Assembly (NCBI GenBank): GCA_026991135.1 | Contig: JALXCD010000055.1 | Location: forward strand, 5,089-69,088 | Direction of reading: 5' to 3' | Source of the DNA: Deltaproteobacteria bacterium | Lineage (GTDB): Bacteria > Desulfobacterota > Dissulfuribacteria > Dissulfuribacterales > QOAL01 | DNA length: 64,000 bases | In this document: one piece after another, positions 29,564 through 44,636 of the stretch | Layout: each line of letters begins with the position of its first letter | Position numbering within the stretch: the stretch's first letter is position 1 | The notes under the pieces: generated by a model | Database searches by the model: none | Told to the model about the DNA's origin: nothing | Seen by the model: only the letters and a program-made list of their open reading frames with translations | Program-made: the position numbers and the translations under genes

Positions 29564-29582
29564 GGCTTCCTCCTTTTCTTGG

Positions 29583-30578: not shown

Positions 30579-31414
30579 TGAAGATTGCAGTTGCAAGCGG
30601 AAAAGGAGGGACCGGAAAGACTTCGGTGGCAGTGGCTCTCACCCTTTCCCTTAATGGGGATGTGACCTTTATTGACTGCGATGTAGAAGAGCCAAACGCC
30701 CATATCTTTATAAATCCAGAGATAACTTCAAAAAGGGATTTTTACCTTGAAGTCCCTGAAATAGATGAAAAAAGGTGCAACTTTTGCGGAAAGTGCAGGG
30801 AAATCTGTAGATTCAATGCAATAGTCTCCTTTAAAAGGACCATTATGGCCTTTAAAGATATGTGCCATTCCTGTGGAGGATGTTTTCTTGTCTGTGACCA
30901 GAAGGCCATATCCCCTGGAAAAAGGCTTGTTGGGGAGATCCTTCATGGGCAGGGTAAAGGCATAGATTTTTTCATGGGAAGGCTTCGGGTTGGAGAGGCC
31001 ATGAGCTCTCCCCTTATAAAGGAGCTAAAAAAGGAGGCCCTTTCGGAAAAAAATGGGTTTTTTGTCCTTGATGCACCGCCAGGAACCTCTTGTCCGGTAA
31101 TAAAGACCGTAAGGGATGTGGATTATGTAATCCTTGTGACAGAGCCAACGCCCTTTGGCCTTTATGACCTTTCCCTTGCAGTAAAGACCATAGGCGAGCT
31201 TTCCATTCCAATGGGGGTAGTCATAAATAAGGCCGGGCTCGGCATAGATGATGAGATCAGAAATTGGTGCAGGAAAAACCATCTAAGGGTCCTTATGGAA
31301 ATACCCTTTTCCCGGGAGATTGCCTCTTCCTATTCAAAGGGCCAGAGCCTTGTCCATGCGGATGAGGGTCTAAAGGAAAAATTCTTGATGTTAGTTAAGG
31401 AGATTTCAGGGTGA
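30578..31414 (+). CDS. MinD/ParA-type P-loop ATPase with inserted 2x[4Fe-4S] ferredoxin domain
   Basis: Deviant Walker A SGKGGTGKTS, CNFCGKCREIC and CHSCGGCFLVC, LDAPPGTSCPV. Confidence 0.8.
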   Translation: MKIAVASGKGGTGKTSVAVALTLSLNGDVTFIDCDVEEPNAHIFINPEITSKRDFYLEVPEIDEKRCNFCGKCREICRFNAIVSFKRTIMAFKDMCHSCGGCFLVCDQKAISPGKRLVGEILHGQGKGIDFFMGRLRVGEAMSSPLIKELKKEALSEKNGFFVLDAPPGTSCPVIKTVRDVDYVILVTEPTPFGLYDLSLAVKTIGELSIPMGVVINKAGLGIDDEIRNWCRKNHLRVLMEIPFSREIASSYSKGQSLVHADEGLKEKFLMLVKEISG

Positions 31415-32304
31415 AGGAGATACTGGTTCTAAGTGGAAAGGGAGGCACTGGAAAGACTACCCTTACCGCAAGCTTTGCGCACCTTTCAAAAGGGTGTGTT
31501 ATAGCTGACTGTGACGTTGATGCCCCTGACCTTCACCTATTGCTAAGACCAAGGATTGAAGAACGGGAGGAATTTCAATCAGGGGTTATGGCTGCGGTCA
31601 TGGAAGAAAGGTGCACAGGGTGCGGCATATGTGAAGGGCTTTGCCGTTTTGACGCCATAAAGGTCAATGATGTGGCAAAGGTTGATGAGTTTTCCTGTGA
31701 AGGCTGTGGCGTTTGTGCATATTTTTGCAAGGAACAGGCAATCCTTTTAAAGGACAGGGAATGCGGCTATTTTTTTAGATCCTCAACAAGGTTTGGAACC
31801 CTTTGCCATGCAGAGCTTAAGCCAGGCGAGGAGAATTCAGGAAAGCTTGTTGCCCATGTAAAGGAGAAGGCAAGAAAGACCTGTCAGGAAGAGGGCACAG
31901 GGCTTCTTATTGTTGACGGCCCCCCTGGAATAGGCTGCCCTGTAATAGCCTCCTTTTCAGGGGTAAATTACGTTGTCATTGTCACAGAGCCAACTGGTTC
32001 AGGGCTTCATGACCTAGAAAGGGTAATCTCCCTTTCGAGGCACTTTAAGGTTCCTTCCTCTGTTGTCATCAACAAGTGGGACCTAAATAGGGAGATGTCT
32101 AAAGAGATTGAAAAAAGGTGTATGGAGCTTGAGGCAGAATTCCTTGGAAGGATTGATTTTGACGAAAATGTGGTGAGGGCCCTTTTGGAAGGTAAGGCCA
32201 TTACTGAATTTAAGGATTGCAAGGTTTCAAAAAGTGTAGCAAATATCTGGCTCAAGATTCAAAAAAAGATACAGGGAGGAAAAAGTGAGCCAAGAAAACA
32301 GTGA
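31411..32304 (+). CDS. MinD/ParA-type P-loop ATPase with inserted 2x[4Fe-4S] ferredoxin domain (paralogue)
   Basis: SGKGGTGKTT, CTGCGICEGLC and CEGCGVCAYFC, VDGPPGIGCPV. 4-nt overlap with the upstream gene. Confidence 0.8.
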   Translation: MKEILVLSGKGGTGKTTLTASFAHLSKGCVIADCDVDAPDLHLLLRPRIEEREEFQSGVMAAVMEERCTGCGICEGLCRFDAIKVNDVAKVDEFSCEGCGVCAYFCKEQAILLKDRECGYFFRSSTRFGTLCHAELKPGEENSGKLVAHVKEKARKTCQEEGTGLLIVDGPPGIGCPVIASFSGVNYVVIVTEPTGSGLHDLERVISLSRHFKVPSSVVINKWDLNREMSKEIEKRCMELEAEFLGRIDFDENVVRALLEGKAITEFKDCKVSKSVANIWLKIQKKIQGGKSEPRKQ

Positions 32305-33178
32305 AAAGAAAAAGCAATCAAATCCTGTTTTGAGCGAGCAGGACAAAAAGATAAAGGAGAAGCTATCCCAGATAGAGCACAAGATCATGGTCATGAGCGG
32401 AAAGGGCGGGGTTGGTAAAAGCACTGTCTCCATCAACCTTGCCATAGGCCTTTCCCTTCAAAACTTCTACGTTGGCCTTCTTGACATAGACATCCACGGG
32501 CCAAATGTCCCAAAGATGCTTGGTGTTGAAAAGGGAGAGCTTCAAAGAAGGCCAGACGGGACCGTAGGCCCTGTCTATTATTCTCCAAATCTCAAGTTCA
32601 TGTCCGTTGAGCCCCTTTTGCCCGACAAGGACTCGGCAGTCATGTGGCGCGGGCCAATGAAGATGTCTGCCATAAGGCAATTCATCTACGATATCGAGTG
32701 GGGGAAACTGGACTATCTTGTGATGGATGCGCCTCCTGGAACAGGGGATGAGCAGATGACCATTGCCCAGATCATTCCAGATGCCTACGCGGTTGTTGTC
32801 ACAACTCCCCAGGAGGTTGCCCTTCTTGATGTGAGAAAGTCCATAAATTTCTGTAAAAAGGTGGGAATGCCCATTATCGGCATTGTAGAGAACATGAGCG
32901 GTATGATCTGCCCCCACTGCGGAAAGGCCATAGATGTCTTTAAACGCGGCGGCGGAGAAAGGCTTTCAGAGGAGCTTGGAATCCCGTTTCTTGGAAAGAT
33001 ACCTGTTGACCCAAGGATTGTTACTACAGGGGATGCCGGAAAGCCCATAATGGCCATGTATCCCAACAGTCACACCGCCGAGGCCTTTGAAAAGGTGGTC
33101 CAGAACGTGATAAATGTTACCCAGACCATGGCCTTGAGGAAAAAGGAGGACGAAGAAACTGCCAAAAAGGAGGAATGA
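32285..33178 (+). CDS. Mrp/NBP35/ApbC-family Fe-S cluster carrier ATPase
   Basis: MSGKGGVGKST, MDAPPGTGDE, VENMSGMICPHCG. GTG start after GGGAGGA. Confidence 0.85.
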   Translation: MSQENSEKKKQSNPVLSEQDKKIKEKLSQIEHKIMVMSGKGGVGKSTVSINLAIGLSLQNFYVGLLDIDIHGPNVPKMLGVEKGELQRRPDGTVGPVYYSPNLKFMSVEPLLPDKDSAVMWRGPMKMSAIRQFIYDIEWGKLDYLVMDAPPGTGDEQMTIAQIIPDAYAVVVTTPQEVALLDVRKSINFCKKVGMPIIGIVENMSGMICPHCGKAIDVFKRGGGERLSEELGIPFLGKIPVDPRIVTTGDAGKPIMAMYPNSHTAEAFEKVVQNVINVTQTMALRKKEDEETAKKEE

Positions 33179-33181
33179 GCC

Positions 33182-33547
33182 ATGAAGATAGCCCTTCCTG
33201 TTGAAAACGGACTTCTTTGCGGGCACTTTGGACATGCCCCCCAGTTTGCAATTGTCAGCGTGGAGGAAGGAAGGGTTACAGGAAGTGAAATCAGGACCCC
33301 TCCTCCCCATGAGCCAGGGGTGCTTCCAAGGTGGCTGAAGGAGCTTGGTGTAAGCCACATAATCTGCGGCGGAATTGGCGCAAGGGCCGTTGAGCTTTTG
33401 AACCAGTCAGGCATTGAGGTAATTGCAGGTATTGGCCAGGATGACCCTTCAAGACTTGTAGAGGCCCTTTTAAGGGGAGAGCTTAAGGGAGCAGCCGGTC
33501 CTACTTGCGGCGGTCACGGACACGGAAAGGGCCAGTGCCAGCACTAA
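33182..33547 (+). CDS. NifX/NifB-like (MTH1175/orange-protein family) protein with His/Cys/Gly tail
   Basis: MKIALPVENG..GHFGHAPQFAIV, ICGGIGARA, C-terminal GPTCGGHGHGKGQCQH. Confidence 0.75.
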   Translation: MKIALPVENGLLCGHFGHAPQFAIVSVEEGRVTGSEIRTPPPHEPGVLPRWLKELGVSHIICGGIGARAVELLNQSGIEVIAGIGQDDPSRLVEALLRGELKGAAGPTCGGHGHGKGQCQH

Positions 33548-33562
33548 TTAAGAGGTGAAAAG

Positions 33563-33811
33563 ATGCCAATCTATGAATACAGGTGCCTTGAATGTGACAG
33601 GGTTTCAGAGATACTTGTCTTTTCAAGTTTTGAGCCCGAATGTCCCCTCTGTGGCTCAAAGAGGCTAAAAAAGATCATGTCTCCAACCTCATCCCTTACC
33701 GGAAGGGCAAAAAGCACCCTTCCAGGCCCAGGGGATACGGGCTGCTGCGGAAATAGGCCTGGTGAAAGCCCAAATTGCTCAGGGCCTGGCTCCTGCTGCG
33801 GAAAAGTCTAG
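33563..33811 (+). CDS. FmdB-family zinc-ribbon protein
   Basis: MPIYEYRCLECD ... CPLCGS, Cys/Gly/Pro-rich tail. Confidence 0.8.
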   Translation: MPIYEYRCLECDRVSEILVFSSFEPECPLCGSKRLKKIMSPTSSLTGRAKSTLPGPGDTGCCGNRPGESPNCSGPGSCCGKV

Positions 33812-34632
33812 CCCTCTTGAATAAAAAGGAAATTAAAAGGCTAAAAAGGGGGCTTGAAGACCTTTATGAACGCTATAACAAGAGGTGCTATGTAAGCCCA
33901 GACCCCCTTGAATTTCTCTACAACTACAAAAACCCCCTTGATAGGGAAGTAGTTGGGCTTATTGCCTCATCCCTTGCCTATGGAAGGGTTACCCAGATCC
34001 TTTCGGCAGTGCGCCTTCTTTTAAAACCAATGGGAAAAGGCCCCAGAGACTTTCTCCTATCTATTAGCGATAAAGATCTAGAGGCCCTTTTTTCAGATTA
34101 CAACCATCGCTTTACCAAGGGGCCAGAAATTGTGGCCTTTTTAAAGGCACTAAAAAGGGCCATTAAAAAATATGGAAGCCTTGAGGGCCTTTTTTCAAAG
34201 GGAGATTCCATTAAGGGAAAAGGTGTTGAAAGGACAGTTTCAAGGGTTACAGGCGCAGTCCATGAGCTTTTAGCCCTTGGAGGTCTAGAAAAAAGCTTCC
34301 TTTTGCCAGACCCTTTAAAAAAGAGCGCATGTAAGAGGCTATTTTTATTTTTAAGATGGATGGTTAGAAGGGATGAGGTGGATCCTGGTGGCTGGAAAAG
34401 CTTTTCTCCCTCTGAACTCATTGTTCCCCTTGACACCCACATGTTTCACATATCAAGGTCCCTTGGCCTTACACAAAAAAGACAGGCAAACCTTAAAACC
34501 GCCATTGAGATCACAAATGCCTTTAGGGCCATAAACCCTGAGGACCCTGTAAAATATGACTTTGTCCTAACCCGGTTCGGGATAAGGGATGAGCTTTCAA
34601 GGGCCGAGGTGCCCGGACTTGTTTTAGGATAA
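33775..34632 (+). CDS. TIGR02757 (DUF2400) family protein
   Basis: Family-like strings (DPLEFLY, VPLDTHMF, DPVKYDFVLTRFG). The listed TTG start overlaps fmdB by 37 nt. An in-frame TTG at 33817, just after the fmdB stop, is more likely. Confidence 0.6.
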   Translation: MLRAWLLLRKSLALLNKKEIKRLKRGLEDLYERYNKRCYVSPDPLEFLYNYKNPLDREVVGLIASSLAYGRVTQILSAVRLLLKPMGKGPRDFLLSISDKDLEALFSDYNHRFTKGPEIVAFLKALKRAIKKYGSLEGLFSKGDSIKGKGVERTVSRVTGAVHELLALGGLEKSFLLPDPLKKSACKRLFLFLRWMVRRDEVDPGGWKSFSPSELIVPLDTHMFHISRSLGLTQKRQANLKTAIEITNAFRAINPEDPVKYDFVLTRFGIRDELSRAEVPGLVLG

Positions 34633-34707
34633 CTTCCCTTTTCCCTTGATGTAGTCCCAATAAACTTTTCCTTTAAACAAGAGGCTGTTTTATGTTAATC
34701 AAGGGCC

Positions 34708-35247
34708 ATGCAATTTTCCCTTGGTTCTCCCAAAAGGGCCCTTAGATACTACTGGCTGAGGCTCATAAGGCTTAGGGGAAACCCCTTTGTCATTGCAAGG
34801 GGGCTTGCAGTAGGGACCTTTGTGGGGGTTACTCCAACCATCCCCTTTCACACCATCTTGACCATTGGCCTTTGCACCCTTTTTAGGGGAAATATCCTGG
34901 CCGGAATCATTGCCAACTGGATAGTGAGCAATCCTGTCTCCATCCCCTTCGAATACTACCTTTCATGGAAGGTGGGCGTGTGGATAACAGGCTCTGATAT
35001 TTCATGGAACCAGGTCCAAAAAATGCTGAACCTCCTTGAATCCGTAGGCTTTTTAGGGGCGTGTCAGCTTATGTTTCAAAAGTTTTTGGAGATAATCTAC
35101 TGCCTTATAATCGGAGGGGTGATTATAGGCATACCTGCCGGTATAGCCTGTTATTTTCTTGCATCCTATTTCTATTTCTGGCAGGAGAAAAGGCGCCAGG
35201 AAAAATTTCTTAAAAGGATTTCAAGACATCACTCCAGCCATGACTAG
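34708..35247 (+). CDS. DUF2062 family membrane protein
   Basis: RGNPFVIARGLAVGTFVGVTPTIPFHT followed by three or four hydrophobic helices. Confidence 0.65.
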   Translation: MQFSLGSPKRALRYYWLRLIRLRGNPFVIARGLAVGTFVGVTPTIPFHTILTIGLCTLFRGNILAGIIANWIVSNPVSIPFEYYLSWKVGVWITGSDISWNQVQKMLNLLESVGFLGACQLMFQKFLEIIYCLIIGGVIIGIPAGIACYFLASYFYFWQEKRRQEKFLKRISRHHSSHD

Positions 35248-36058
35248 TCAGGAACCTCGGCCCCTAAAAAGATTTGGTCAAAATTTCCTTCTTGACCCAA
35301 ATGCAATAAAAAAGATTGTCTCTTTTATCCCCCGGGAACTAGACACCCAATGTGTGATCGAGATTGGAACCGGCACAGGGAATCTGACCCTGGCCCTTTC
35401 AGAAAGGTTTGAAAAGGTTATCACAATTGAAATCGATAAAAGGCTCATAGAGTGGCACAAAAAAGAGGGCATTTTGCCTAAAAACTGTCACCTTGTTGAA
35501 GGGGATGTGCTAAAGATGTCCTTTAGGGAGCTTTTGAAAGACTTTCACTGCAATGAGGCTGTCCTTACAGGAAATCTCCCCTATAACATTTCAAGCCCAG
35601 TTGTCTTTAAGATGTGCGAAGAAAGAAGTCTCATCCCCTTTTCACTTCTCATGTTTCAAAGGGAGGTTGCAGAGCGCATTGTGGCAGGGCCAGGCACAAA
35701 GGATTACGGAATACTGAGCGTAATCTGCCAGTTTTGCTATGATGTAAGGCTTCTTATGACCCTTTCACCTTCCCTTTTTAGACCAAGGCCCAAGGTCTTT
35801 TCAGGGGTGGTGAGCTTTAAGAGAAAGGACACTTCCGATGCTTCAATAGACTTTGGGCTTTTTGTAAGGACCGTCAAGGCGGCCTTTTCAAAAAGGAGAA
35901 AGAAGATAAAAAACTCCCTTTCCGTACTAATCAGGGATAAAGGGGATTTAACCAATATCCTAAAGGATTCCGGGATAGACCCGAACATGCGGCCAGAAGA
36001 GCTAGAGGTAGAAAGATTTATTGAGCTGACAAAAAGGATACAAAGGGAATATTTTTAA
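35240..36058 (+). CDS. rsmA: 16S rRNA (adenine1518-N6/adenine1519-N6)-dimethyltransferase
   Basis: KRFGQNFLLD, VIEIGTGTGNLT, GNLPYNISS. ATG at 35240 overlaps the DUF2062 stop (ATGACTAG). Confidence 0.9.
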   Translation: MTSQEPRPLKRFGQNFLLDPNAIKKIVSFIPRELDTQCVIEIGTGTGNLTLALSERFEKVITIEIDKRLIEWHKKEGILPKNCHLVEGDVLKMSFRELLKDFHCNEAVLTGNLPYNISSPVVFKMCEERSLIPFSLLMFQREVAERIVAGPGTKDYGILSVICQFCYDVRLLMTLSPSLFRPRPKVFSGVVSFKRKDTSDASIDFGLFVRTVKAAFSKRRKKIKNSLSVLIRDKGDLTNILKDSGIDPNMRPEELEVERFIELTKRIQREYF

Positions 36059-36162
36059 AATTCTAGGCTTAAAATCCTGGTTGTAGCATCCCTATGGCAA
36101 AATAACCTTTGTAGTTTGGCTCCAAAAAAACAGCCAGAATTGGAGTGCCACTTTAATCCTCG

Positions 36163-37668
36163 TTACGCTTTGGCCCACTCAAACTCTACGACGTTCTTCT
36201 CCCTGGAGTTAAAGCCAATCCCTACCAGAAATACCCTTTTTGAGGTGCCGAGATATTTTTCATGGTAACCCTTCTCTTTGATCTGTTCCAATGCCTTTCT
36301 GGACTCACTATCCACCTTGAACTCCATTACATAGACCTTGTCATCTGCAATGACAGTTAGATCCACACGCCCCTTGCTGGAAACATCCTCAGGAATCAGC
36401 CTGAGTCCAAGGGAGGCAATGTAGGCATAAACTACTGATGCATAATAGCCCTCGTAATGCTGGATGATGCTGTTTGCATAGTTGTGGTATGGAATGGAGG
36501 CAAAGAGTGACTTTAGCGCATGCCTTAAAAGTTCCAAATCGCCGTTAAAAAAGGCTTGCACCAGCTCCTTCCTGCTTTCGCGAAGCTCTCTGTCCAAGCC
36601 AGTCAAATAGTGAAGAAACAGCTTATTGAGGGAAATTTGAATCTCCTTGTTGGGAAGGCCCAGTCGATACTCCATCCCGTCAATTCCCTCATATTTTTCC
36701 TTGAAGGTGAGATAACCTGTCTGCCAAAGAAGGGCGGCAATGTCTATGTAGTCAACATCAAAGGCGTCTAGAACAAAGTCATCTACTATGCAGTTTTCTA
36801 GATCTGGAAGATAACGAGGCTGTATCTTGAGAAGGTCAATGAGAAAGCTTGGGTTGCCTGTGCACCACCAGTAGGGACGATATTCCTTGTTCTGTGCAAG
36901 AAAGAGGAGAATGTCAAAGGGATTGTATAGGGGCTCTGCGAAGTAATTATATCCGTTATACCACTCTTTGAGCTTCTCAAGGTCCACTCCCTTGAGATGC
37001 TCCCTAAAGTCATCCACTACCTCCTGGTGAGTATATCCGCAGAGGGTGGCAAAGGAGGGATCGACTGTAATGTCATTGAGATTGTTAAGCCCGCTAAAGA
37101 GGTTGAGTTTTGAAAACTTGGAAACCCCTGTAATAAAGACAAAGCGGATGTATTCGTCCAGGTCCTTGATAATATCATAGAAGGATTTTAGTTTGTCTCT
37201 ATTTTGTCTTGCCAGCTCCCGGTCTGTAATGAAGTCCAGCATGGGTTTGTCGTATTCGTCAATGAGGATCACAACCTTTTCTTTGAACTGTTCAAAGCAG
37301 CGCTCTATTAGTTCTGAAAAGCAGGAGACAGGCTCATCGCAAGAAAATTCAGTTTTCACCCCAAGCAGCCTTTTGTAACGTCTAAGTAGATTCAGCAATA
37401 TCCTGTTGAATCCCTCTTCGTTCCTGAAATCACCACCCCCTAGACTTATCTTTATGACAGGGTAGTTCTTCTCCCAGTCCCACTTGTCCTCGATGTAAAG
37501 CCCTTTGAAAAGCCCCTTGTTGCCATGGAAAAGCTCATGGAGGGTGGAGATGAGCACACTCTTTCCAAATCGCCTGGGACGGCTCAAAAAGAAGTATTTG
37601 CCAGACAGAACGAGGTCACGAATCTCCCTGGTCTTGGCAACATAGACATAGTTTTCCTTTGGATCCAC
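36163..37668 (-). CDS. AAA-ATPase-like / PD-(D/E)XK nuclease fusion protein (DUF1703-type)
   Basis: Walker A RPRRFGKS, Walker B VVILIDEYD, C-terminal GRVDL...YVMEFKV (D..ExK). The first usable start is a GTG with no SD. The conserved family N-terminus (KRLPIGIQTFSEL) is encoded in frame upstream (37669-37743) but has no canonical start. Confidence 0.7.
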   Translation of the reverse strand: MDPKENYVYVAKTREIRDLVLSGKYFFLSRPRRFGKSVLISTLHELFHGNKGLFKGLYIEDKWDWEKNYPVIKISLGGGDFRNEEGFNRILLNLLRRYKRLLGVKTEFSCDEPVSCFSELIERCFEQFKEKVVILIDEYDKPMLDFITDRELARQNRDKLKSFYDIIKDLDEYIRFVFITGVSKFSKLNLFSGLNNLNDITVDPSFATLCGYTHQEVVDDFREHLKGVDLEKLKEWYNGYNYFAEPLYNPFDILLFLAQNKEYRPYWWCTGNPSFLIDLLKIQPRYLPDLENCIVDDFVLDAFDVDYIDIAALLWQTGYLTFKEKYEGIDGMEYRLGLPNKEIQISLNKLFLHYLTGLDRELRESRKELVQAFFNGDLELLRHALKSLFASIPYHNYANSIIQHYEGYYASVVYAYIASLGLRLIPEDVSSKGRVDLTVIADDKVYVMEFKVDSESRKALEQIKEKGYHEKYLGTSKRVFLVGIGFNSREKNVVEFEWAKA

Positions 37669-38069
37669 AAGCTCTGAAAATGTCTGAATTCCAATGGGAA
37701 GGCGCTTTACAAGGTATTCTTCAATTAGGCCGTCTTCTTCTTTTTAGCTATAACATATCCATATACCACTAAAAAACAGTCACTTAACCATTGATGGTGT
37801 GGTCCTTCTTTACTTTTTATTTTATCTTTATGCAGGGCAAAAGGAGTTTTAAGGGTCTTTGGTTAGGGTTTAAGGACAGATACAGGGCGACTGTTTTTCG
37901 TTATGACAATTTCTTTAATGATGTAAATGTACCGTCTCCCTAGATGGTCTTTGTCAATTAAGATTGAGCCTGTTTGAAAAAATCTTTAGAAAGGAAAGGA
38001 TATTGCAAAGCCTTTAAGAGACTTCGATGCTCTACAAAAAGATGTGGTTTGTCTTTCCGGGTAAAAAGC

Positions 38070-39710
38070 CTATTTACACTTTTCCTTCCAGTTGACCTTG
38101 TAAAGGCCCATGAACCAGCGGGCTTCAGGGGAAGTAACTTTCTTTTGGATTTTACAGGCCTCTTCCCACGTGAGCACCCCTGTAATGTATTTTCCCTTTT
38201 GCATTTCCAGCCACTCAAGAGAGGTCTTTTCTACTGCCTGTTTAACTAGGTTGATATGTTTTTCTCTAACTAAAAAAGGTTTAAAAGATTCAATTATTTT
38301 GATTATCCGTTGGCAATCCTCAGATGTAAACTTTTTATCTCCAAGGAGAGAAAGTTGGGTGGGTTTTCCGATGCGGTCTACGAAATTTTTATAATCCTCT
38401 CCAGCGTAGGCTCCTTGAAGGTAGGCCATTGTTAGATCAGCGCCTTGCAGTATGGCATGAGTCAAAACTGCTCCTTGCAAGTTGGCGAACGATGGACTAG
38501 CCCCCTGCAAGTTGGCACCCCTAGTCCACTGAAAGCCGGCAAAAAATATCATAAACCTTAGAAACTCGGCTTCCCCTAGCCTAGCCCCTTGCAAGTTGCC
38601 TGTCCTTAAATCGGCTCCCTGTAAGTTGACATCCATTAGCTCAGCCCCCTGCAAGTTGGCATTAAATAGACAAGCTTTCTTTAATTTGGCCGAGTTAAAA
38701 GAGGAGTATTGGAGCTGGCTTTTCCCTAAATTTACACCACGCAGGTTTGAACCGCTAAAGTCAAAATTAACCATCTTGCTATAGGACATATCTGCCATTA
38801 TGAAATTCCTGTTTCGCAAGTCCACCTTGGTTGTATAAAAAAGATAGGTTTTTTTTCGCTCTTCATTGTCCAGTTCCCGATAGGCCTTGGCTTCGTTTAG
38901 GTCAAAGTCTTCGTTGAGATTGCAGTGGGTCACTTCAAGGCGTGGCAATATTGCAAGTAAGAATTTCATTTGGTTGGGTTTTAGAAAACGTGATGGATAA
39001 TCTCGAAAGAGGAATGGGTACTGAAGAAAAAGACAAAAAAAGATGAAGAAAAGGATGAAAAAAAGTATAAAACCTGACCGGGTAGGCCCTAAGTTTAAAA
39101 GCCTCTTCAAACCGGAGTATTTATTTTTATGGATTAAAAGCGGGTCTATTATTAGGCACAGAATTAATAAAAACAAATGCCAAAATGTAAGAAAAACGCT
39201 TTGATAATCTGCAAAGCGAAAGAAAAAGACTGCCAATACCACGGGCGGAAAGAGATAGACCAGGAAATTTACACTCCACCTTACAATGCTGCTTGCGTCA
39301 AGATAAGGAGCATCCAGGATGGAAAAGGGAATTTCTCTAATCGTTTCACGAGGGATTTTTTCCAGTTCCTTGCAGTAGCGATCATGCATCCAGAGGACCC
39401 CAAAATGTAAGAGCAAGATAGCCAGGGGAGTAACGAAGTAAAAGGTGAGCAGGGGCAGGGAAATGCGAAGGCCAGGTATCTCTATGGGGCGTTCAAGGAG
39501 AAGATCGTAATCTGAAGTCCCCAGCACTGCAAGGAGGGCATAGGCGCAGAAGAGTGAAAAGAAGAGTATCCTTCTGGTATTATGCTTGGACTTTTCTGCC
39601 AGAAAAGCCCTTTTTTCTTGGATAGACAGTGTGGCTTTTTGCTGACTAGGTCCTGAATTTTTGGGAAGTTGTAAGGGCCTTGGTCTAAATCTGGACTTTA
39701 GAAAACGCAA
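38070..39710 (-). CDS. Polytopic membrane protein with C-terminal pentapeptide-repeat domain
   Basis: About five hydrophobic helices in aa 48-235, then a run of A(D/N)LxG-type pentapeptides (NANLQGAELMDVNLQGADLRTGNLQGARL ... ANLQGAVLTHAILQGADLTMAYLQGA). TTG start. Confidence 0.7.
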   Translation of the reverse strand: MRFLKSRFRPRPLQLPKNSGPSQQKATLSIQEKRAFLAEKSKHNTRRILFFSLFCAYALLAVLGTSDYDLLLERPIEIPGLRISLPLLTFYFVTPLAILLLHFGVLWMHDRYCKELEKIPRETIREIPFSILDAPYLDASSIVRWSVNFLVYLFPPVVLAVFFFRFADYQSVFLTFWHLFLLILCLIIDPLLIHKNKYSGLKRLLNLGPTRSGFILFFILFFIFFCLFLQYPFLFRDYPSRFLKPNQMKFLLAILPRLEVTHCNLNEDFDLNEAKAYRELDNEERKKTYLFYTTKVDLRNRNFIMADMSYSKMVNFDFSGSNLRGVNLGKSQLQYSSFNSAKLKKACLFNANLQGAELMDVNLQGADLRTGNLQGARLGEAEFLRFMIFFAGFQWTRGANLQGASPSFANLQGAVLTHAILQGADLTMAYLQGAYAGEDYKNFVDRIGKPTQLSLLGDKKFTSEDCQRIIKIIESFKPFLVREKHINLVKQAVEKTSLEWLEMQKGKYITGVLTWEEACKIQKKVTSPEARWFMGLYKVNWKEKCK

Positions 39711-39840
39711 CCCTTCCCTCCAGGGCTATAAAATCTTTTTAAATTTTATATCAACCTCATCTGAAAAAGTCATGTCCCTGCCCAAAGATTTTTCTCAAAA
39801 AAACCTAAAAAATCCTTTTAACCATTAAAACCTAAAAGAA

Positions 39841-40620
39841 TCAAAACACCCTTTCCTTGACCATATCTGAAAGTCCCTTAAAGGCCTCCTGCCTTTTTTC
39901 TGGATCTTCTATGTATTTCATTTCAGAAAGAAATTCATAGCCAAGGTCAACTGCCTTTTGGACAAAGGTCCTTTTGGCGTCTTGATCCCCATGGACGCCA
40001 TTTAATACAAGGAATTTTTCCTTTCCCCCAAAAAATGCCTCGGCCCTTTTTAGAATGGACTCATCAAGGCCATTTGTCATAAGGATGAGCTTTTGAGCCC
40101 TTGTGATAAGGCGTGCTGAAAGCTCCCCCAATCCAAAGGTCTCTATTACGGTTAGATCCTTGTAATTTTGGGCCTCATCCAGTAGCCTTTCTGCCAAGAT
40201 CGGCCCACCTAAGGCACCTGGCATAAGCTTTCCAAATACAAGCCTTTTTTGGCTATCTTCCATGTGAAATATGTTTCCAACCTGCATATTCATCATATTG
40301 AGGGCCTTTTGTGGGCAGTGTTCAGCACAGACCCCGCAGCCTTCACACTCCAGAGGATCGATCCAAAGATCGGCCTCACTTATGGCCCCAAGGGGACAGT
40401 TTTTGGCACAAAGTCCACAGGATACACAGACCATGTAATTTCTCATGGGGGCAGGGACTTGAAAGGGCTCCTTTTTCTTGATGTTCCCCTTAAAAAATTC
40501 CCTCAAGATTGGGACTTCAACATTTCCATCAACGAATGTGCCTTTGTCAATTTTTTTCATAAGGCCCTTTATTAGCTCGGTCTTTCCACTTCCTGGGTTT
40601 CCAAATACTGCGATCTCCAT
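39841..40620 (-). CDS. Divergent P-loop/2x[4Fe-4S] protein related to the MinD-ferredoxin pair at 30.6-32.3 kb
   Basis: GNPGSGKT Walker A (no signature KGG lysine), CVSCGLCAKNCP and CEGCGVCAEHCP. The DxPPGxGCP block is replaced by IETFGLGELS. Confidence 0.65.
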   Translation of the reverse strand: MEIAVFGNPGSGKTELIKGLMKKIDKGTFVDGNVEVPILREFFKGNIKKKEPFQVPAPMRNYMVCVSCGLCAKNCPLGAISEADLWIDPLECEGCGVCAEHCPQKALNMMNMQVGNIFHMEDSQKRLVFGKLMPGALGGPILAERLLDEAQNYKDLTVIETFGLGELSARLITRAQKLILMTNGLDESILKRAEAFFGGKEKFLVLNGVHGDQDAKRTFVQKAVDLGYEFLSEMKYIEDPEKRQEAFKGLSDMVKERVF

Positions 40621-41429
40621 TATGCACCTCCTGAAAGCCTTAATGTCTTTTCAAATGCTTCCTGAACATTAGGGTCCTTTTCCTGAAGGGTGTCACTTCC
40701 AAGGTCTTGGATAAAGGGAACGAAAAGGCCTGTCAGATTAAGGCCATCAATTTCCTGGCTGATATCTTCAGGAAACCTTTTTCCAATAAAGACAACTGCC
40801 CCTGGCATATCAAAGCCCTGAACAATCTGGCCAAAGGTATTTATTTCATCTTTCACCCCTTGATGGTCTGAAGTTACAAGCAAAAAGGTGTCTGCATCCT
40901 TTATGGCCTTAAGACTCATGGCCCCTAGGCCCAAGGGGGCCTTAAGAACGGCATTTTTCCCTTCTATTGGATGGCTTTCCTTAATTTCTTTGATAAGCCC
41001 GCCTTCCCAGGCATCGCCAGAAGAAAGCCTTCCTGCAAAAAAGGAAATATTTCCGTCCTTTCCGCTTCCGATTTGGCCGGATTCCATTTCTTCAAAATAG
41101 ATGGCACCCTTGGGACAGACCTCCTTACAATGGCCGCAGCCACGGCAAAAATAGGGTTTCCTAGTAACCCTTCCGTTTTCCTTTAGGATTGCACCAAAGT
41201 TACAGGCCTCAAAACACCTTCCGGAAAGGTCGCATTTTTTGTGGTCAACCCTTGAGACCTTTCTTTTTACAGTCTTTTCATTCCACGGATAAAAGGAGAT
41301 GAGCTTTGGATTTGATACATCCAATTCATAAAGGGAAACCTCTTCCCTTTTGGCCCAAAAGCTTGCAAGACTCCGTGTAAAGGTGCTTCGGCCAATATTT
41401 CCCCTGACTGCCAATATTCCAATGATCAT
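40620..41429 (-). CDS. Divergent, probably ATPase-dead MinD-ferredoxin paralogue
   Basis: Walker A position reads VRGNIGRST. CDLSGRCFEAC has its second Cys replaced by Ser. CRGCGHCKEVCP is intact. LKAPLGLGAMS replaces LDAPPGTSCPV. Collinear with the 30578-31414 product (FFAGRLSSGDAWEGGLIKEIK vs FFMGRLRVGEAMSSPLIKELK). Confidence 0.65.
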   Translation of the reverse strand: MIIGILAVRGNIGRSTFTRSLASFWAKREEVSLYELDVSNPKLISFYPWNEKTVKRKVSRVDHKKCDLSGRCFEACNFGAILKENGRVTRKPYFCRGCGHCKEVCPKGAIYFEEMESGQIGSGKDGNISFFAGRLSSGDAWEGGLIKEIKESHPIEGKNAVLKAPLGLGAMSLKAIKDADTFLLVTSDHQGVKDEINTFGQIVQGFDMPGAVVFIGKRFPEDISQEIDGLNLTGLFVPFIQDLGSDTLQEKDPNVQEAFEKTLRLSGGA

Positions 41430-41586
41430 TTTTTCCTCCTGAATCTAAGGGCGTCTTTTAAAACAAAAAGCGCCTAATTTAGTGATTTTTTTTAAGAAAA
41501 TGGGTAAAAAGGCCCTGGGAGTCAATACCCTTTTGAAAATTTTTTTAGGAATTAAAAGGATAAGGGAGATTTCAAAAAGGAAGGGA

Positions 41587-42288
41587 TTAGTTTTTTAAGT
41601 ATCCTGCCCTTTTTAATCGCTCAATTACCTCTTCTGGCTCTAGATCATACCAGTTGAGATAGGCATCTGCCACGGCATAGTAGAAACCGCCCCTTATGTT
41701 TGGGCAAAATATTTCGTCTGCCTCCTCTTTAAGCCTGTCGATGGCAGTGTCTGAACCCGTTGGGGCAGAGACCACAACCCTTTTGGCCCCGCCCCTTTTT
41801 ACTCCCCTTATGACAGCAAGGGTGGTAAAGCCAGAGGCAAGGCCGTCATCGGCAATGATAACGGTTTTTCCTGAAAAGTCGGGAAGGGGGCGTCCGTCTC
41901 TAAAGAGCCTGTTTCTCTTTTCTAGCTCCTTTCTTGTCCGCTCTATCTGCCACTCCACCTGCTGAGGCGTAATTCCAAGACGGTCTATGAGCTCTTGGTT
42001 GAGATAAAGGCCACCGGTAAAGCTTAGGGAGCCCATGCCTGCCTCAGGATTTCCCGGAATCTGTATCTTTCTTACAATGAAAAGATCAAGGGGAAGGTTA
42101 AGGTCTTTGGATATGGCTATTGCAATAGGGACTCCGCCAGAAGGTATCCCTAGGACCAGGGTGTCTGGGGCATCCCTATAGTAGGACTCCATCATCCTTG
42201 CCAAAAAGAGCCCTGCCTCGTCCCGGTCTTTAAATACATGGGTCTTGTTTCTGAGGGTTGGAATTTCAAAGACCTTTGCGCCTTTCAT
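41587..42288 (-). CDS. Phosphoribosyltransferase-domain protein
   Basis: FKDRDEAGLFLA N-terminus and PRPP-binding loop VIIADDGLASGFT. Substrate unknown. Confidence 0.7.
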   Translation of the reverse strand: MKGAKVFEIPTLRNKTHVFKDRDEAGLFLARMMESYYRDAPDTLVLGIPSGGVPIAIAISKDLNLPLDLFIVRKIQIPGNPEAGMGSLSFTGGLYLNQELIDRLGITPQQVEWQIERTRKELEKRNRLFRDGRPLPDFSGKTVIIADDGLASGFTTLAVIRGVKRGGAKRVVVSAPTGSDTAIDRLKEEADEIFCPNIRGGFYYAVADAYLNWYDLEPEEVIERLKRAGYLKN

Positions 42289-42358
42289 GGAAGAAAAGAG
42301 TTAATAGGGGAGCTGTATTTACCTGCGGTCATTTTGACTCTAAAAGTAACAAAAGACT

Positions 42359-42435
<77 letters not shown>

Positions 42436-42657
42436 GTCGGTTAAAGATTACATTTGCTCTATAACCATTTTTTTTCTTATTGTAAAGATTGTGACTTTCC
42501 TCATCAAGGGTTGTCGATAACTCGGCTGTTGAAAAACGCGAATAAAAGGTAAGAAATTATCAATAGTTTTTATGTCATTCCTAGAGAATTTATTCATTAA
42601 TATCTTTAAAAGTTCTTTTTTTGTATTAGAATTTGAACTGGTCAAGGAGGTAAAGAC

Positions 42658-43137
42658 ATGAAGGTAGAAAATGATACGGTTGTAGAAATTCAATATATGC
42701 TTCAGGTAAAGGATGGAGCAACACCACCAGAGCTTTCAAAGGTTTTTCAGGCAAGGTTTTTGTATGGAAGGGAGCCTGTGATACCAGCTTTGGAGAAGGC
42801 AATACTTGGTTTAGAAAGTGGTGAGGAAGTGGAAGTAACTATCCCCCCTGAACAGGGGTTTGGCCACTATGATGAAAAGCTTGTTAATGAGATCCCAAAA
42901 TCCGATCTCAAAAGGCCAGAGGCCCTTAAAGAAGGTGAAATATACGAAGAAATTGCTAGCCATGGGCACCCCGTTCGTTTCATGGTCAAGGAGATTAAGG
43001 ACGATAGTGTAGTGGCAGATTTTAATCATCCTGCTGCCGGAAAGGACCTTATCCTTAAGGCAAGGGTTTTATCTGTCCGGGCTGCAAACGCAATGGACAT
43101 CCTGAGGGCTATAAATCTGAGTAGAGGCGGGGGGTGA
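42658..43137 (+). CDS. slyD: FKBP-type peptidyl-prolyl cis-trans isomerase (SlyD-like)
   Basis: VVEIQYMLQVKDG, LEKAILGLESGEEVEVTIPPEQGFG, insert-in-flap region, FNHPAAGKDL. AAGGAGG SD. Confidence 0.8.
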   Translation: MKVENDTVVEIQYMLQVKDGATPPELSKVFQARFLYGREPVIPALEKAILGLESGEEVEVTIPPEQGFGHYDEKLVNEIPKSDLKRPEALKEGEIYEEIASHGHPVRFMVKEIKDDSVVADFNHPAAGKDLILKARVLSVRAANAMDILRAINLSRGGG

Positions 43138-44636
43138 GCCTGCTAAAGGCAGGGGATAGTTTATCCCCCATAAATTTATCCTTAAAAAAGGGGCGAAAGG
43201 CCCCTTTATTCTTTAAATTTAAAAGGTTTGTCAGGGACCATGCCCTTCTTAAAAGAGGGGCATCTGTAATTGTTGCCGTTTCAGGCGGACCTGATTCCAT
43301 CTGTCTTTTGTCTCTCCTTTATAATTTTGCTCTAGAATACAATCTGAAGCTTTTAGTGGCCCATGTGGATCACATGTTGAGAGGCAAAGAGTCAGCCTTT
43401 GAGGCCGAGTTTGTTGAAAGGATCTGCAAGCAAAATGAAATCCCCTTTTTCATAAAAAGGGTGGATGTAAAGAACTTTATGATGTCAAACAAAGGGTTGA
43501 GTGTCCAAGAGGCCTGCCGGAAGCTAAGATATGAATTTTTCTTTGAACTTAAGAGGGAGCAGGAAATAGATCTTATAGCAACAGGCCATACGGCCTCTGA
43601 TCAGGCAGAAGAGGTGCTTTTTAGGCTCATTCGTGGTGCAAGCCTTGAAGGCATATCTGGAATAAGGCCAAAAAGAAAGGATGGTGTTATAAGGCCAATT
43701 CTTTTTGCCAAAAGAGAAGAGATCTTAGAATTTTTAGAAGATTTGGACTTACACTATGTAATAGATTCTAGCAACTTAGAGGAAAAATATACAAGAAATA
43801 AATTTCGACTATGGCTTATTAAAGAGATTCAAAGAGAATTTAACCCTTCTTTGACAGATACGCTTTTAAGGACATCTCTTTTGCTCCAGGAAGATGAAGA
43901 CCTTTTGACCCTTTTGGCAGAAAAGGTACTGGTGAAGTGTGAAAAACGCCTATCTGTGTCAGGGGTATTTGCCCTTGACATCCCCAGCCTTTTAAAGAAG
44001 CATCCTTCCATTAGAAGGCGAATCTATAAGATGATCCTCTTTGATCTTGGTCTTCATGGGGGAAATTTGCTCATAGATCATTTTTTAAAGATAGATTCTC
44101 TCTCTCAGGCAAAGAGGCCTTCCAGTATTTATTATTTGCCACAGGGTTTTATTGTCTTAAGAGAATACAATACCTTGTTTTTTTTAAAAAAAGACGAAAT
44201 CAATTCTATTGAAAGAGGAATAGAGATTAGGATCGATGGTCCTCAAAAAATTGAACTTGGCAGGGATCTTGGCTCCCTTACTATCAAGAAAGTAAAAATC
44301 CACAATAGTTCCATATTTAAAGAAAAAGGCCGGGGGCTTTTTATTAGCAGGGATGCCCTGAAATTTCCTATTTTAATTAGGCAAAGAAGGCCGGGCGACC
44401 GGTTTCGACCCCTTGGTCTAAAAGAATCTATCAGGCTGAAAAAGTTTTTTATAAACAGGAAGGTCCCGAGGATCTTGAGGGATTTTATTCCACTTATTGT
44501 AGATGAACACGGAGATATTCTGGCCATTTGTAACATTGAAGTCAGTGATGGGGCCAAGGTAAAAGACAAAGATGCATATTTTATATGCTGGGAGCCTTCC
44601 CCGCTTTTAAAGGGGCTTTGGCAAGGCGCTACTTAG
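43134..44636 (+). CDS. tilS: tRNA(Ile)-lysidine synthetase
   Basis: PP-loop VAVSGGPDSICLL, VAHVDHMLRG, HTASDQAEEVLFRL. GTG start overlapping the slyD stop. Confidence 0.88.
   Translation: MSLLKAGDSLSPINLSLKKGRKAPLFFKFKRFVRDHALLKRGASVIVAVSGGPDSICLLSLLYNFALEYNLKLLVAHVDHMLRGKESAFEAEFVERICKQNEIPFFIKRVDVKNFMMSNKGLSVQEACRKLRYEFFFELKREQEIDLIATGHTASDQAEEVLFRLIRGASLEGISGIRPKRKDGVIRPILFAKREEILEFLEDLDLHYVIDSSNLEEKYTRNKFRLWLIKEIQREFNPSLTDTLLRTSLLLQEDEDLLTLLAEKVLVKCEKRLSVSGVFALDIPSLLKKHPSIRRRIYKMILFDLGLHGGNLLIDHFLKIDSLSQAKRPSSIYYLPQGFIVLREYNTLFFLKKDEINSIERGIEIRIDGPQKIELGRDLGSLTIKKVKIHNSSIFKEKGRGLFISRDALKFPILIRQRRPGDRFRPLGLKESIRLKKFFINRKVPRILRDFIPLIVDEHGDILAICNIEVSDGAKVKDKDAYFICWEPSPLLKGLWQGAT

What the first reader, a model, noticed from the sequence alone, without database searches (positions are those of the whole stretch)
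36059..39840. Compositionally deviant two-gene cassette between rsmA and the MinD-like pair: possible horizontally acquired (defence-like) module
My hand count of the tetramer GGCC gives these approximate values:
- About 2 in the 1.5-kb ATPase-nuclease gene.
- About 9 in the 1.6-kb pentapeptide gene.
- About 10 in just 600 bp of the neighbouring TIGR02757 gene.
- Similarly high density in the MinD-like pair.

The cassette is bounded by unusually long non-coding spacers (104, 401 and 130 bp) in an otherwise tightly packed window. It carries genes with poor or no SD and non-ATG starts. An ATPase-nuclease plus a membrane or repeat partner is a common logic in phage-defence islands.

There is no integrase, direct repeat or adjacent tRNA end, so the mode of acquisition is unclear.
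Basis: partly seen in the sequence, partly recalled or inferred. Interest (0 to 1): 0.55.

Follow-up and report, generated by a model that had tools for sequence, protein, structure and literature searches.

The report
Strain-variable gap holding two unrelated accessory genes
The 3.8-kb stretch is real accessory DNA, missing from a sister genome about 95% identical. It holds two unrelated genes (a mobile ATPase-nuclease that has lost its start codon, and a membrane pentapeptide-repeat protein) and not a recognisable two-gene defence system.

Summary
The compositional argument is weak. Tetranucleotide usage is not deviant. GGCC poverty is a trait of both gene families in other hosts too. Only synonymous codon usage deviates (z 7.8 and 5.2).

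The decisive result is synteny. In a sister MAG (Deltaproteobacteria bacterium S143_37, about 94-97% nt identity), rsmA abuts the MinD-like pair with overlapping stop codons. Window ~36040-39843 is absent there. There is no target duplication, repeat or integrase.

The two genes are not a conserved pair: no co-occurrence in 5 ATPase and 3 pentapeptide homolog contexts, and no significant PADLOC hit.

Gene 1 belongs to the DUF1703 family (PF09820 AAA+ ATPase + PF08011 PD-(D/E)XK nuclease). This family is widespread and its function is unknown. The closest relatives (59-79%) sit in polysaccharide loci of other genomes. Here the ancestral ATG is GTA, so the conserved N-terminus cannot be translated from a standard start.

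Gene 2 (five predicted TM helices, pentapeptide beta-helix, conserved C-terminal domain) has a 60%-identical counterpart beside the same tRNA-Arg/FKBP/tilS/ftsH block in a more distant relative. It is probably an old resident.

Verdict: an ordinary accessory indel. Gain versus loss is unresolved.

The parts
36040..39843 (.). Segment present in the window and absent from sister MAG S143_37 (contig WFZZ01000212.1 = L007). L007 has about 24 unrelated bp in its place.
   Evidence: blastn: L007 1-400 matches window 35640-36039 (97.5%), and L007 425-2989 matches window 39844-42407 (93.9%). The L007 junction 23-mer is not found in the window.
36163..37668 (-). DUF1703-type ATPase-nuclease ORF as callable from GTG (501 aa). 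It has an AAA-ATPase_like domain plus a PDDEXK_9 domain. Walker A RPRRFGKS, Walker B DEYD and nuclease D436/E449/K451 are intact.
   Evidence: Pfam PF09820 at 2.2e-56 and PF08011 at 2.1e-21. Invariant columns in a 38-sequence alignment. AF2 model with pLDDT 76.6; best PDB fold match is archaeal ORC2/Cdc6 1w5t.
37669..37710 (-). In-frame remnant of the conserved N-terminus (V-KRLPIGIQTFSEL). The family's ATG is GTA at 37710-37708. An in-frame stop lies at 37746-37744, with no ATG/GTG/TTG in between.
   Evidence: Translation; homolog N-termini MKRLPIGIQTF...; DNA alignment showing ATG in the homologs against GTA here.
37711..38069 (-). Spacer between the pentapeptide stop and the ancestral ATPase start (359 nt; 401 nt to the GTG). 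No detected feature.
   Evidence: No Rfam match at E<=1. RNA fold z=+0.47. No homology to homolog loci outside the ORFs. No consensus promoter or terminator in the spacer.
38070..39710 (-). Membrane pentapeptide-repeat protein (546 aa). It has a basic N-terminus, five hydrophobic helices (residues ~48-230), a conserved linker, an ANLQGA beta-helix (~295-440) and a conserved C-terminal helical domain. TTG start with SD GGAGG at 39721-39717.
   Evidence: Pfam PF00805 at 2.6e-20. Family alignment. Hydropathy. AF2 model with pLDDT 82.9 and pTM 0.79. PDB fold hits only to pentapeptide proteins. SD.
39711..39840 (-). 130-bp AT-rich upstream region of the pentapeptide gene, ending at the right breakpoint.
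35240..36058 (+). rsmA (left flank). Its last 6 codons lie beyond the breakpoint and differ from the sister MAG (QREYF here, RRYIS there).
39841..40620 (-). MinD-like/4Fe-4S gene (right flank). Its stop codon lies at the breakpoint. In the sister MAG it runs 2 codons further and overlaps the rsmA stop by 4 nt.
42359..42435 (-). tRNA-Arg(TCT), 2.5 kb from the cassette. It anchors the conserved FKBP-tilS-ftsH block. The sister MAG contig diverges inside it.

Best explanation
Window ~36040-39843 is a strain-variable, dispensable gap between the convergent 3' ends of rsmA and a MinD-like gene. It holds two functionally unlinked accessory genes, not a two-gene system.

Gene A (36163-37668) is a solitary member of the DUF1703 family: an ORC/Cdc6-like AAA+ ATPase fused to a PD-(D/E)XK nuclease.
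- The family moves between lineages and usually sits alone or in tandem in variable loci.
- By inference from its domains, it is an ATP-gated DNA nuclease of the conflict type (defence or selfish). Its real substrate is unknown.
- In this genome the ancestral ATG has become GTA, and there is no Shine-Dalgarno sequence before the fallback GTG. The gene is probably silenced, or makes a protein lacking a nearly invariant N-terminal segment. Either way the decay is early, because all catalytic motifs remain intact.

Gene B (38070-39710) encodes a polytopic membrane protein carrying a pentapeptide beta-helix and a conserved C-terminal domain.
- It has good expression signals.
- A counterpart lies beside the same tRNA-Arg/FKBP/tilS/ftsH block in a more distant relative.
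- It is most likely a long-standing resident of this neighbourhood. The ATPase-nuclease landed next to it later.

The sister strain lacks both genes. Whether that reflects one deletion there (slightly favoured) or one insertion here is not settled.

Shown: the indel, the domain content, the lost start codon, the lack of co-occurrence, and the synteny of gene B.
Inferred: the order of events and the biochemical roles.
For: - Indel: the sister MAG has rsmA and MinD-like stop codons overlapping by 4 nt, with the cassette absent, against a background of 94-97% nt identity.
- No close copy elsewhere: no protein >=80% identical to either cassette gene was found in the search of the 5.8-billion-protein collection. 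rsmA has two >=90% relatives there.
- Not a pair: ATPase homolog loci L002, L015, L016-18, L019 and L021 have no pentapeptide gene within the flanks held for each locus (2.6-10 kb per side). Pentapeptide homolog loci L001, L013 and L014 have no ATPase-nuclease. In L001 the downstream gene starts MCGRF (SRAP-like).
- Gene B is old. L001 carries a 60%-identical counterpart in the same orientation, 2.3 kb from the 3' end of the same tRNA-Arg. Flanking orthologs are 39-84% identical (FKBP 64, TilS 39, FtsH 84, DHPS 63, CdaA 83, YbbR 62, GlmM 84).
- Gene A is mobile. It is 79% aa / 77% nt identical to a gene whose flanks have 57% GC (L021). Nucleotide homology stops at the ORF ends. The best non-self rsmA is 53% identical. 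Codon usage is the most deviant in the window. Published work on the family reports paralog expansions, plasmid copies and HGT (PMC6387759).
- Start loss.
- Motifs intact: and the family description in PMC1913061.
- Loss slightly favoured. A third, more divergent rsmA allele (P0361) shares the window-type codons QRE beyond the breakpoint, while P0362 has the S143_37-type end.
Against: - The direction of the indel is not established. The three-allele rsmA comparison has no rooted synapomorphies, and the contigs carrying P0361 and P0362 could not be read.
- No >=80% homolog of either cassette gene turned up for the P0361 assembly. This fits poorly with that strain carrying the cassette.
- The pentapeptide gene also shows deviant codon usage (z 4.4-5.5) and shares CTT depletion and CTG/CGN enrichment with the ATPase gene (r=0.34, top 5% of gene pairs). 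That could mean a common foreign origin. However, its best codon-usage partner is another membrane protein at 58387-60546 (r=0.46).
- In L001 the genes between tRNA-Arg and the pentapeptide gene differ from those in the window. The shared position could therefore reflect a shared integration hotspot rather than vertical descent.
- Only 8 homolog contexts were examined, and the three pentapeptide contexts are cut by contig ends on one side.
- The ATPase may still be translated from GTG or from a non-standard start.
Confidence: 0.55

Rival explanations
1. The whole 3.8 kb entered the window's lineage in one recent event. It would have arrived by illegitimate recombination, or by homologous recombination with a cassette-bearing strain, between the convergent gene ends. 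The two genes are passengers with no joint function.
For: - The segment is absent from the sister MAG, which has a compact junction with overlapping stops.
- Both genes have deviant synonymous codon usage in a partly shared direction.
- Identity to the sister MAG is slightly lower next to the right junction: 89.5-91% over the first ~300 nt against ~94-97% elsewhere.
- There are no >=80% homologs of either gene in the other strains of the species cluster.
Against: - There is no target-site duplication, terminal repeat, integrase or transposase.
- The pentapeptide gene has a counterpart in the same neighbourhood and orientation in a distant relative, with ortholog-like divergence.
- The closest homologs of the two genes come from different contexts.
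- The window-type rsmA end is shared, for 3 codons, by a more divergent allele.
Confidence: 0.28
2. One reading: a horizontally acquired two-gene defence module. The membrane pentapeptide protein would act as sensor or partner, and the ATPase-nuclease as effector.
For: - The segment is accessory.
- ATPase + PD-(D/E)XK nuclease is a common defence architecture. PF09820-type ATPase domains are listed in RADAR/PARIS/Old-type proteins in a review table (PMC10952713).
- The genes are on the same strand and adjacent.
Against: - PADLOC gives only a non-significant hit (E=0.021, 11 bits) for the ATPase and nothing for the partner. PHROGs has no match for the ATPase.
- The genes never co-occur in 8 other contexts.
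- They are separated by 359-401 nt.
- The supposed effector has lost its start codon and has no SD.
- No other defence genes lie nearby.
Confidence: 0.07
3. Assembly or binning artefact: a chimeric join in the window's contig, or a collapsed or mis-joined sister contig, creates a false presence/absence difference.
For: - Both genomes are metagenome assemblies.
- The sister contig L007 is only 3.1 kb. It overlaps L006 by 150 bp inside rsmA, which indicates a graph branch in that sample.
Against: - Both junction states give intact reading frames with proper stops for rsmA and the MinD-like gene.
- The cassette-less rsmA end recurs in an independent full-length protein record, P0362.
- The window's contig is continuous for >60 kb across the region.
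Confidence: 0.04

Closest known systems
DUF1703 family proteins (Pfam PF09820 AAA-ATPase_like + PF08011 PDDEXK_9; Knizewski et al. 2007, PMC1913061; Cardinium expansion, Siozios et al. 2019, PMC6387759)
   Same: - Same two-domain architecture and length class.
- Atypical Walker A RPRRFGKS, Walker B DEYD, and nuclease D...E-x-K with conserved Gln.
- ORC/Cdc6-like AAA+ fold.
- Patchy, HGT-prone distribution in variable loci.
   Different: - Single copy here (no paralog in the 64-kb window).
- The family's ATG start is mutated to GTA, so 14 conserved N-terminal residues are not translatable from a standard start.
- The family itself has no experimentally known function.
ATPase-nuclease phage-defence proteins (e.g. 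RADAR RdrA-type ATPases, PARIS, OLD/Gabija-type, Avs/STAND with PD-DExK effectors)
   Same: General logic of a P-loop NTPase coupled to, or fused with, a restriction-endonuclease-fold nuclease. Weak fold resemblance to STAND/ORC ATPases.
   Different: - No significant match to any PADLOC model.
- At ~515 aa there is no separate sensor or repeat domain.
- No partner gene is conserved.
- No defence phenotype is known for the family.
Pentapeptide-repeat proteins (HetL, Qnr/MfpA, Rfr, PipB2)
   Same: Right-handed quadrilateral beta-helix of A(D/N)LXX repeats. Pfam PF00805 is above its cut-off. PDB fold hits go to HetL, QnrB1, MfpA and designed beta-solenoids.
   Different: - All NCBIfam family-specific models score far below their cut-offs (e.g. 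HetL 73 vs 260 bits, Qnr 30 vs 240).
- This protein is membrane-anchored by five predicted TM helices and has its own conserved linker and C-terminal domain.
- Repeat number varies widely among orthologs (546-755 aa).
tRNA-linked genomic islands
   Same: Strain-variable gene content near a tRNA-Arg that shows signs of integration in the sister MAG. Codon usage is atypical.
   Different: - The cassette is 2.5 kb from the tRNA, behind three conserved native-like genes.
- There is no integrase and no copy of the tRNA 3' end.
- There are no flanking direct repeats.

Membership tests
DUF1703 (AAA-ATPase_like + PDDEXK_9) | N-terminal PF09820 domain above the Pfam gathering score | tested here: met
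   191.3 bits against a cut-off of 26.1; profile positions 12-201 of 201 are matched, and the first 11 are missing from the callable ORF
DUF1703 (AAA-ATPase_like + PDDEXK_9) | C-terminal PF08011 PD-(D/E)XK domain above the gathering score, with catalytic D, E-x-K | tested here: met
   76.3 bits against a cut-off of 25.5; D436, E449 and K451 are invariant in 38 homologs and present here
DUF1703 (AAA-ATPase_like + PDDEXK_9) | Atypical Walker A RPRRFGKS and Walker B DEYD (Knizewski 2007) | tested here: met
   R30-S37 and D137-D140 are invariant and present (PMC1913061)
DUF1703 (AAA-ATPase_like + PDDEXK_9) | Complete conserved N-terminus (M-K-R/K-L-P-I-G-I-Q-x-F) translated from a start codon | tested here: not met
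   The sequence is encoded in frame, but the ATG is GTA and no start codon lies upstream
Known anti-phage defence systems (PADLOC-DB v2) | Significant match of each component to a system's HMMs | tested here: not met
   ATPase: only PDC-S41 at E=0.021, 11 bits. Pentapeptide protein: none
Known anti-phage defence systems (PADLOC-DB v2) | Conserved co-occurrence of the component genes | tested here: not met
   No co-occurrence in 5 ATPase and 3 pentapeptide homolog loci
Known anti-phage defence systems (PADLOC-DB v2) | Protection against phage or plasmid | not testable with these tools
   Needs an experiment
Genomic island / integrative element | Presence/absence polymorphism between close relatives | tested here: met
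   Absent in S143_37 at ~95% nt identity
Genomic island / integrative element | Integrase or transposase, flanking direct repeats or a tRNA-derived att site | tested here: not met
   No such ORF; no junction repeats; the tRNA 3' end occurs only once
Genomic island / integrative element | Deviant nucleotide composition | tested here: inconclusive
   Codon usage is deviant, but tetranucleotide usage is not, and GGCC/GC poverty is a family trait
Pentapeptide-repeat protein (PF00805) | Tandem A(D/N)LXX repeats forming a beta-helix | tested here: met
   72.1 bits against a cut-off of 20.2, in 5 stretches; the AF2 model has regular 5-residue strands over residues 296-435; fold hits
Qnr/MfpA or HetL subfamilies | Score above the NCBIfam equivalog cut-off | tested here: not met
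   HetL 72.9 vs 260; Qnr 30.1 vs 240; MfpA 28.9 vs 360

The most novel reading that the evidence does not exclude
DUF1703 ATPase-nucleases could be autonomous single-gene conflict elements: a stand-alone ATP-gated nuclease that either defends against invaders or promotes its own spread. They would insert, without transposase or target duplication, into intergenic gaps of variable loci. In the homologs examined these are typically surface-polysaccharide clusters; here the gap lies between two convergent gene ends. The window would then show one such element caught shortly after inactivation. A still bolder version is that the membrane pentapeptide protein is its local partner.
Probability: 0.08. 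Interest if true: 0.55.

Novelty: new member of a known kind. Interest (0 to 1): 0.22.

Why it matters
As it stands this is a routine example of strain-level accessory content, and it matters mainly as a caution. A hand-counted tetramer deficit pointed to a real accessory segment, but for the wrong reason: the deficit follows the protein families, not the history of this locus.

Two points have modest wider value.
- DUF1703 is a very large, uncharacterised ATPase-nuclease family (at least 8000 clusters matched in the search). Its closest members here all sit in polysaccharide loci. A clean presence/absence pair plus a start-codon-dead copy gives a natural starting point for asking what the family does.
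- The membrane pentapeptide family, with its conserved N- and C-terminal domains and strongly variable repeat number, is undescribed.

Tried and rejected
- Metagenome scan with the MinD-like protein gave only an unrelated ferredoxin-domain hit.
- Viral-contig scan with the ATPase found no relative.
- Exact look-up of the window's own ATPase protein found no record.
- Outgroup rsmA contexts (50-53% identity; L009-L012) keep DUF2062-rsmA but differ downstream (ZnuABC or Mfd). They therefore do not polarise the indel.
- rsmA C-termini of outgroups are too variable to tell which junction is ancestral.
- I looked for microhomology, target duplications or inverted repeats at the junctions. Only short AT-rich matches turned up (I6-I8, 14-17 nt), they are not colinear, and I judged them to be chance.
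- The 401-bp spacer has no Rfam hit, no excess folding energy, no homology to homolog loci and no convincing ORF.
- The irregular stretch in the pentapeptide helix (residues ~383-397, low pLDDT) was tested for a compensated frameshift. No repeat-like reading exists in the other frames.
- A recombination-tract signal next to the cassette gives only a mild dip in identity.
- A shared codon-usage signature of the two genes is modest (r=0.34), and the pentapeptide gene matches another membrane protein better.
- Sequence search of the PDB with the ATPase found nothing. The fold search gave only distant ORC/Cdc6, STAND and AAA+ matches.

Full report
**What is at the coordinates.** Between rsmA (true start probably ATG 35240; ends 36058, + strand) and a MinD-like/4Fe-4S gene (39841-40620, - strand) lie two minus-strand ORFs.
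- 36163-37668 (501 aa, GTG start) matches Pfam AAA-ATPase_like PF09820 (2.2e-56) and PDDEXK_9 PF08011 (2.1e-21).
- 38070-39710 (546 aa, TTG start) matches Pentapeptide PF00805 (2.6e-20).
- The flanking gene assignments (TIGR02757/DUF2400, DUF2062, RrnaAD, two Fer4-containing P-loop proteins) are confirmed.
- The spacers are 104, 401 and 130 bp. Among 65 intergenic gaps (median 7 bp) only the 401-bp one is exceptional, ranking 2nd.

**Checking the compositional observation.** The GGCC counts are essentially right: 2 and 8 in the cassette genes, and 10, 9 and 12 in TIGR02757 and the MinD-like pair. The window mean is 7.1/kb, and the minimum of all 1.5-kb windows falls on the ATPase gene.
- GGCC is three times over its mononucleotide expectation across the window (455 vs 152). 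Under a second-order Markov expectation it is at O/E ~1 in nearly every gene, so the excess is carried by GGC/GCC trinucleotides. The ATPase gene has O/E 0.43, and several clearly native genes have 0.47-0.54.
- The ATPase protein is poor in Ala and Gly (3.8% and 5.8%, against 7.1% and 7.8%).
- Tetranucleotide frequency distance and TETRA correlation do not single out the cassette. The outliers are 43-45.5 kb and 2.5-4.5 kb.
- ATPase homologs carry 1.9-4.5 GGCC/kb, below their flanks (5.4-8.6/kb) in four of the five other loci. Pentapeptide homologs are GGCC- and GC-poor relative to their flanks in all three other hosts. GGCC poverty travels with the families.
- Synonymous codon usage, conditioned on amino-acid content, survives as a signal. 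The ATPase gene is the most deviant of 65 ORFs (z=7.8; GC3 0.55). The pentapeptide gene ranks third by z (z=5.2; z=4.4 without its repeats). Both under-use the host's CTT and over-use CTG/CTC and CGN.
- The two deviation vectors correlate only modestly (r=0.34). The pentapeptide gene resembles another membrane protein at 58387-60546 more closely (r=0.46).
- The claim of poor Shine-Dalgarno sequences is wrong for the pentapeptide gene, which has GGAGG 6 nt before the TTG.

**The decisive test: synteny.** A scan of one genome per species with rsmA returned two contigs of the MAG 'Deltaproteobacteria bacterium isolate S143_37'.
- L006 matches window 25161-35790 at 94.9% identity.
- L007 matches 35640-36039 at 97.5%. 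After 24 unrelated bases it continues at 39844-42407 at 93.9%.
- In L007 rsmA (12-419) and the MinD-like gene (416-1201, opposite strand) overlap by 4 nt at their stop codons.
- The window's extra DNA therefore spans ~36040-39843. It replaces 23-24 bp and alters the last 5 residues of RsmA and the last 2 of the MinD-like protein.
- There is no target-site duplication and no terminal repeat. The sister junction sequence has no copy in the window, and there is no integrase or transposase.
- No protein >=80% identical to either cassette gene was found in the search of the 5.8-billion-protein collection, although rsmA has two >=90% relatives there.

The segment is thus accessory at the strain/species boundary.

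**Are the two genes a unit?** No evidence says so.
- The closest ATPase homologs (79, 76, 65, 65 and 59% identity) were read in their contigs. L021 lies between a glycosyltransferase fragment, VanZ and Bac_transf. L002 is a tandem pair inside a nonulosonic-acid/transketolase cluster next to a DDE transposase. L015 (Desulfolithobacter dissulfuricans chromosome) is a tandem pair plus an ATPase_2/DUF234 gene inside a glycosyl/sulfotransferase cluster. L019 lies beside a NeuB cluster. L016-18 lie among TA modules, Y1 transposases and sugar epimerases.
- None of these loci has a pentapeptide gene (tblastn).
- The pentapeptide homologs (60, 58 and 44% identity) lie next to tRNA-Arg/FKBP (L001), flagellar genes (L013) and ABC/EF-G genes (L014), with no ATPase-nuclease. 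In L001 the next gene downstream begins MCGRF..., which is SRAP/YedK-like.
- Nucleotide homology of each gene to its relatives stops at the ORF boundaries.
- PADLOC gives nothing significant, and PHROGs has no match for the ATPase.

**The ATPase-nuclease.** It is a textbook DUF1703 protein, as described by Knizewski et al. 2007 (PMC1913061).
- Walker A RPRRFGKS, Walker B DEYD and nuclease D436...E449-F-K451 are all invariant in a 38-sequence alignment and present here.
- The AF2 model (pLDDT 76.6) finds archaeal ORC2/Cdc6 (1w5t) as its best PDB match, followed by STAND and clamp-loader ATPases. No close solved structure exists.
- The family is huge (8000 scored candidates, all significant). 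It is known for paralog expansions, plasmid copies and HGT, and its function is undetermined (PMC6387759).
- Evidence that it is foreign here: it is 79% aa / 77% nt identical to a gene whose flanks have 57% GC (the window has 44%), while the best non-self RsmA is 53% identical.
- New observation: every close homolog starts MKRLPIGIQTF.... The window encodes V-KRLPIGIQTFSEL in frame, but the ATG is GTA (37710-37708). The next upstream in-frame triplet that ends the frame is a stop (37746-37744), with no ATG/GTG/TTG in between. The first usable start is the GTG for Val-14, which has no Shine-Dalgarno sequence.
- The gene is otherwise intact. This looks like recent silencing or an N-terminally crippled product.

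**The pentapeptide protein.**
- It belongs to a compact family. Members share a conserved basic N-terminus, five hydrophobic helices, a conserved linker (LEVTHCNLN..FDLNEAKAYRELD), a variable number of ANLQGA repeats (546-755 aa among close relatives) and a conserved C-terminal helical domain ending VNWEEKCK.
- The AF2 model is confident (pLDDT 82.9, pTM 0.79). Only the beta-helix finds structural relatives: HetL, QnrB1, MfpA and designed solenoids.
- It fails all subfamily-specific NCBIfam cut-offs.
- Its function is unknown. By analogy with other pentapeptide proteins, the beta-helix is a protein- or DNA-mimicking interaction surface held at the membrane. This is inference.

**History of the locus.** In L001 (GCA_054007745.1) the block GlmM-YbbR-CdaA-DHPS-FtsH-TilS-FKBP-tRNA-Arg is colinear with window 42359-50507.
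- L001 has a pentapeptide homolog in the same orientation, 2.3 kb beyond the tRNA's 3' end. In the window that distance is 2.65 kb.
- Its 60% identity lies inside the range of the flanking orthologs (39-84%).
- The intervening genes differ: an HsdR fragment plus an unknown 544-aa protein in L001, and a phosphoribosyltransferase plus the MinD-like pair in the window.
- This argues that the pentapeptide gene is an old resident of this neighbourhood, or that the neighbourhood is a recurrent landing site.
- The second option gains some support from the sister MAG, whose contig keeps only the 3' half of tRNA-Arg and then diverges.
- Among three rsmA alleles of the species cluster, the most divergent one (P0361) shares QRE beyond the breakpoint with the window. 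P0362 has the S143_37-type end. This leans towards the window-type junction being older and the sister strain having lost the segment.
- The comparison cannot be rooted, and the relevant contigs could not be read.

I therefore rate 'old pentapeptide gene + later DUF1703 arrival + loss of both in the sister strain' at about 0.55. A single insertion of the whole segment is at about 0.28.

**Verdict.** The counts are right, but the compositional inference is largely confounded. The segment is accessory and the ATPase-nuclease is horizontally mobile, but it is not a demonstrable cassette or a known defence system. One of the two genes appears long resident in the lineage, and the other is losing its expression signals. 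This is a new member of known kinds, of low to moderate interest.

Noticed in passing
window 42359-42435 (-); L007 2940-3149: tRNA-Arg(TCT). The sister MAG contig matches the window only through the 3' half of the tRNA (to window 42407) and then continues with unrelated AT-rich DNA. ARAGORN finds no tRNA in L007. This looks like an attachment-site remnant of an element integrated at this tRNA in S143_37.
   Followed up: partly
L001 7963-9937 and 11931-12102: In the more distant relative, the DNA between tRNA-Arg and the pentapeptide ortholog holds an 85-aa HsdR C-terminal fragment (PF11867) and a 544-aa protein with no Pfam or PADLOC match. An SRAP/YedK-like gene (MCGRF...) follows the pentapeptide gene.
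   Followed up: partly
L002 7287-10490; L015 8001-11172; L016 7001-8545; L019 4042-5586; L021 528-2090: The closest DUF1703 homologs sit in or next to surface-polysaccharide / nonulosonic-acid biosynthesis clusters in 5 of 5 independent contexts. Two are tandem pairs, and DDE or Y1 transposases or toxin-antitoxin genes often lie nearby.
   Followed up: partly
whole window: GGCC is about 3-fold over-represented relative to base composition (455 observed, 152 expected). The excess is fully explained by GGC/GCC trinucleotide frequencies.
   Followed up: yes
window 35159-35247: The longest rsmA ORF (TTG 35159) overlaps the DUF2062 gene by 89 nt. The database protein and its relatives start at ATG 35240 (272 aa).
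   Followed up: partly
window 36040-36058; proteins P0361, P0362: Three alleles of the last five RsmA residues exist in the >=90% cluster: QREYF (window), QREHA (ENA contig of 5445 bp) and RRYIS (S143_37 type, NCBI contig of 2121 bp). This suggests at least three junction states downstream of rsmA in this species cluster.
   Followed up: partly
window 30578-32304 (+) and 39841-41429 (-): Two separate pairs of MinD/ParA-like P-loop proteins with inserted 2x[4Fe-4S] ferredoxin domains. The pairs are 27-33% identical to each other.
   Followed up: no
window 50508-51124: The largest intergenic gap of the window (617 bp, between convergent genes). It was not examined.
   Followed up: no
window 43001-45500 and 2501-4500: These are the strongest tetranucleotide outliers of the window (low-GC tilS region; lowest TETRA correlation at 2.5-4.5 kb). 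They deviate more than the cassette does.
   Followed up: no
L001, L013, L014: All three pentapeptide homologs examined lie at a contig end. This may be because the near-identical ANLQGA-coding repeats break assemblies.
   Followed up: no
window 38520-38560 (protein residues ~383-397): An irregular hydrophobic stretch (EAEFLRFMIFFAGFQW) interrupts the pentapeptide helix and is modelled with low confidence. It is not explained by a frameshift.
   Followed up: yes
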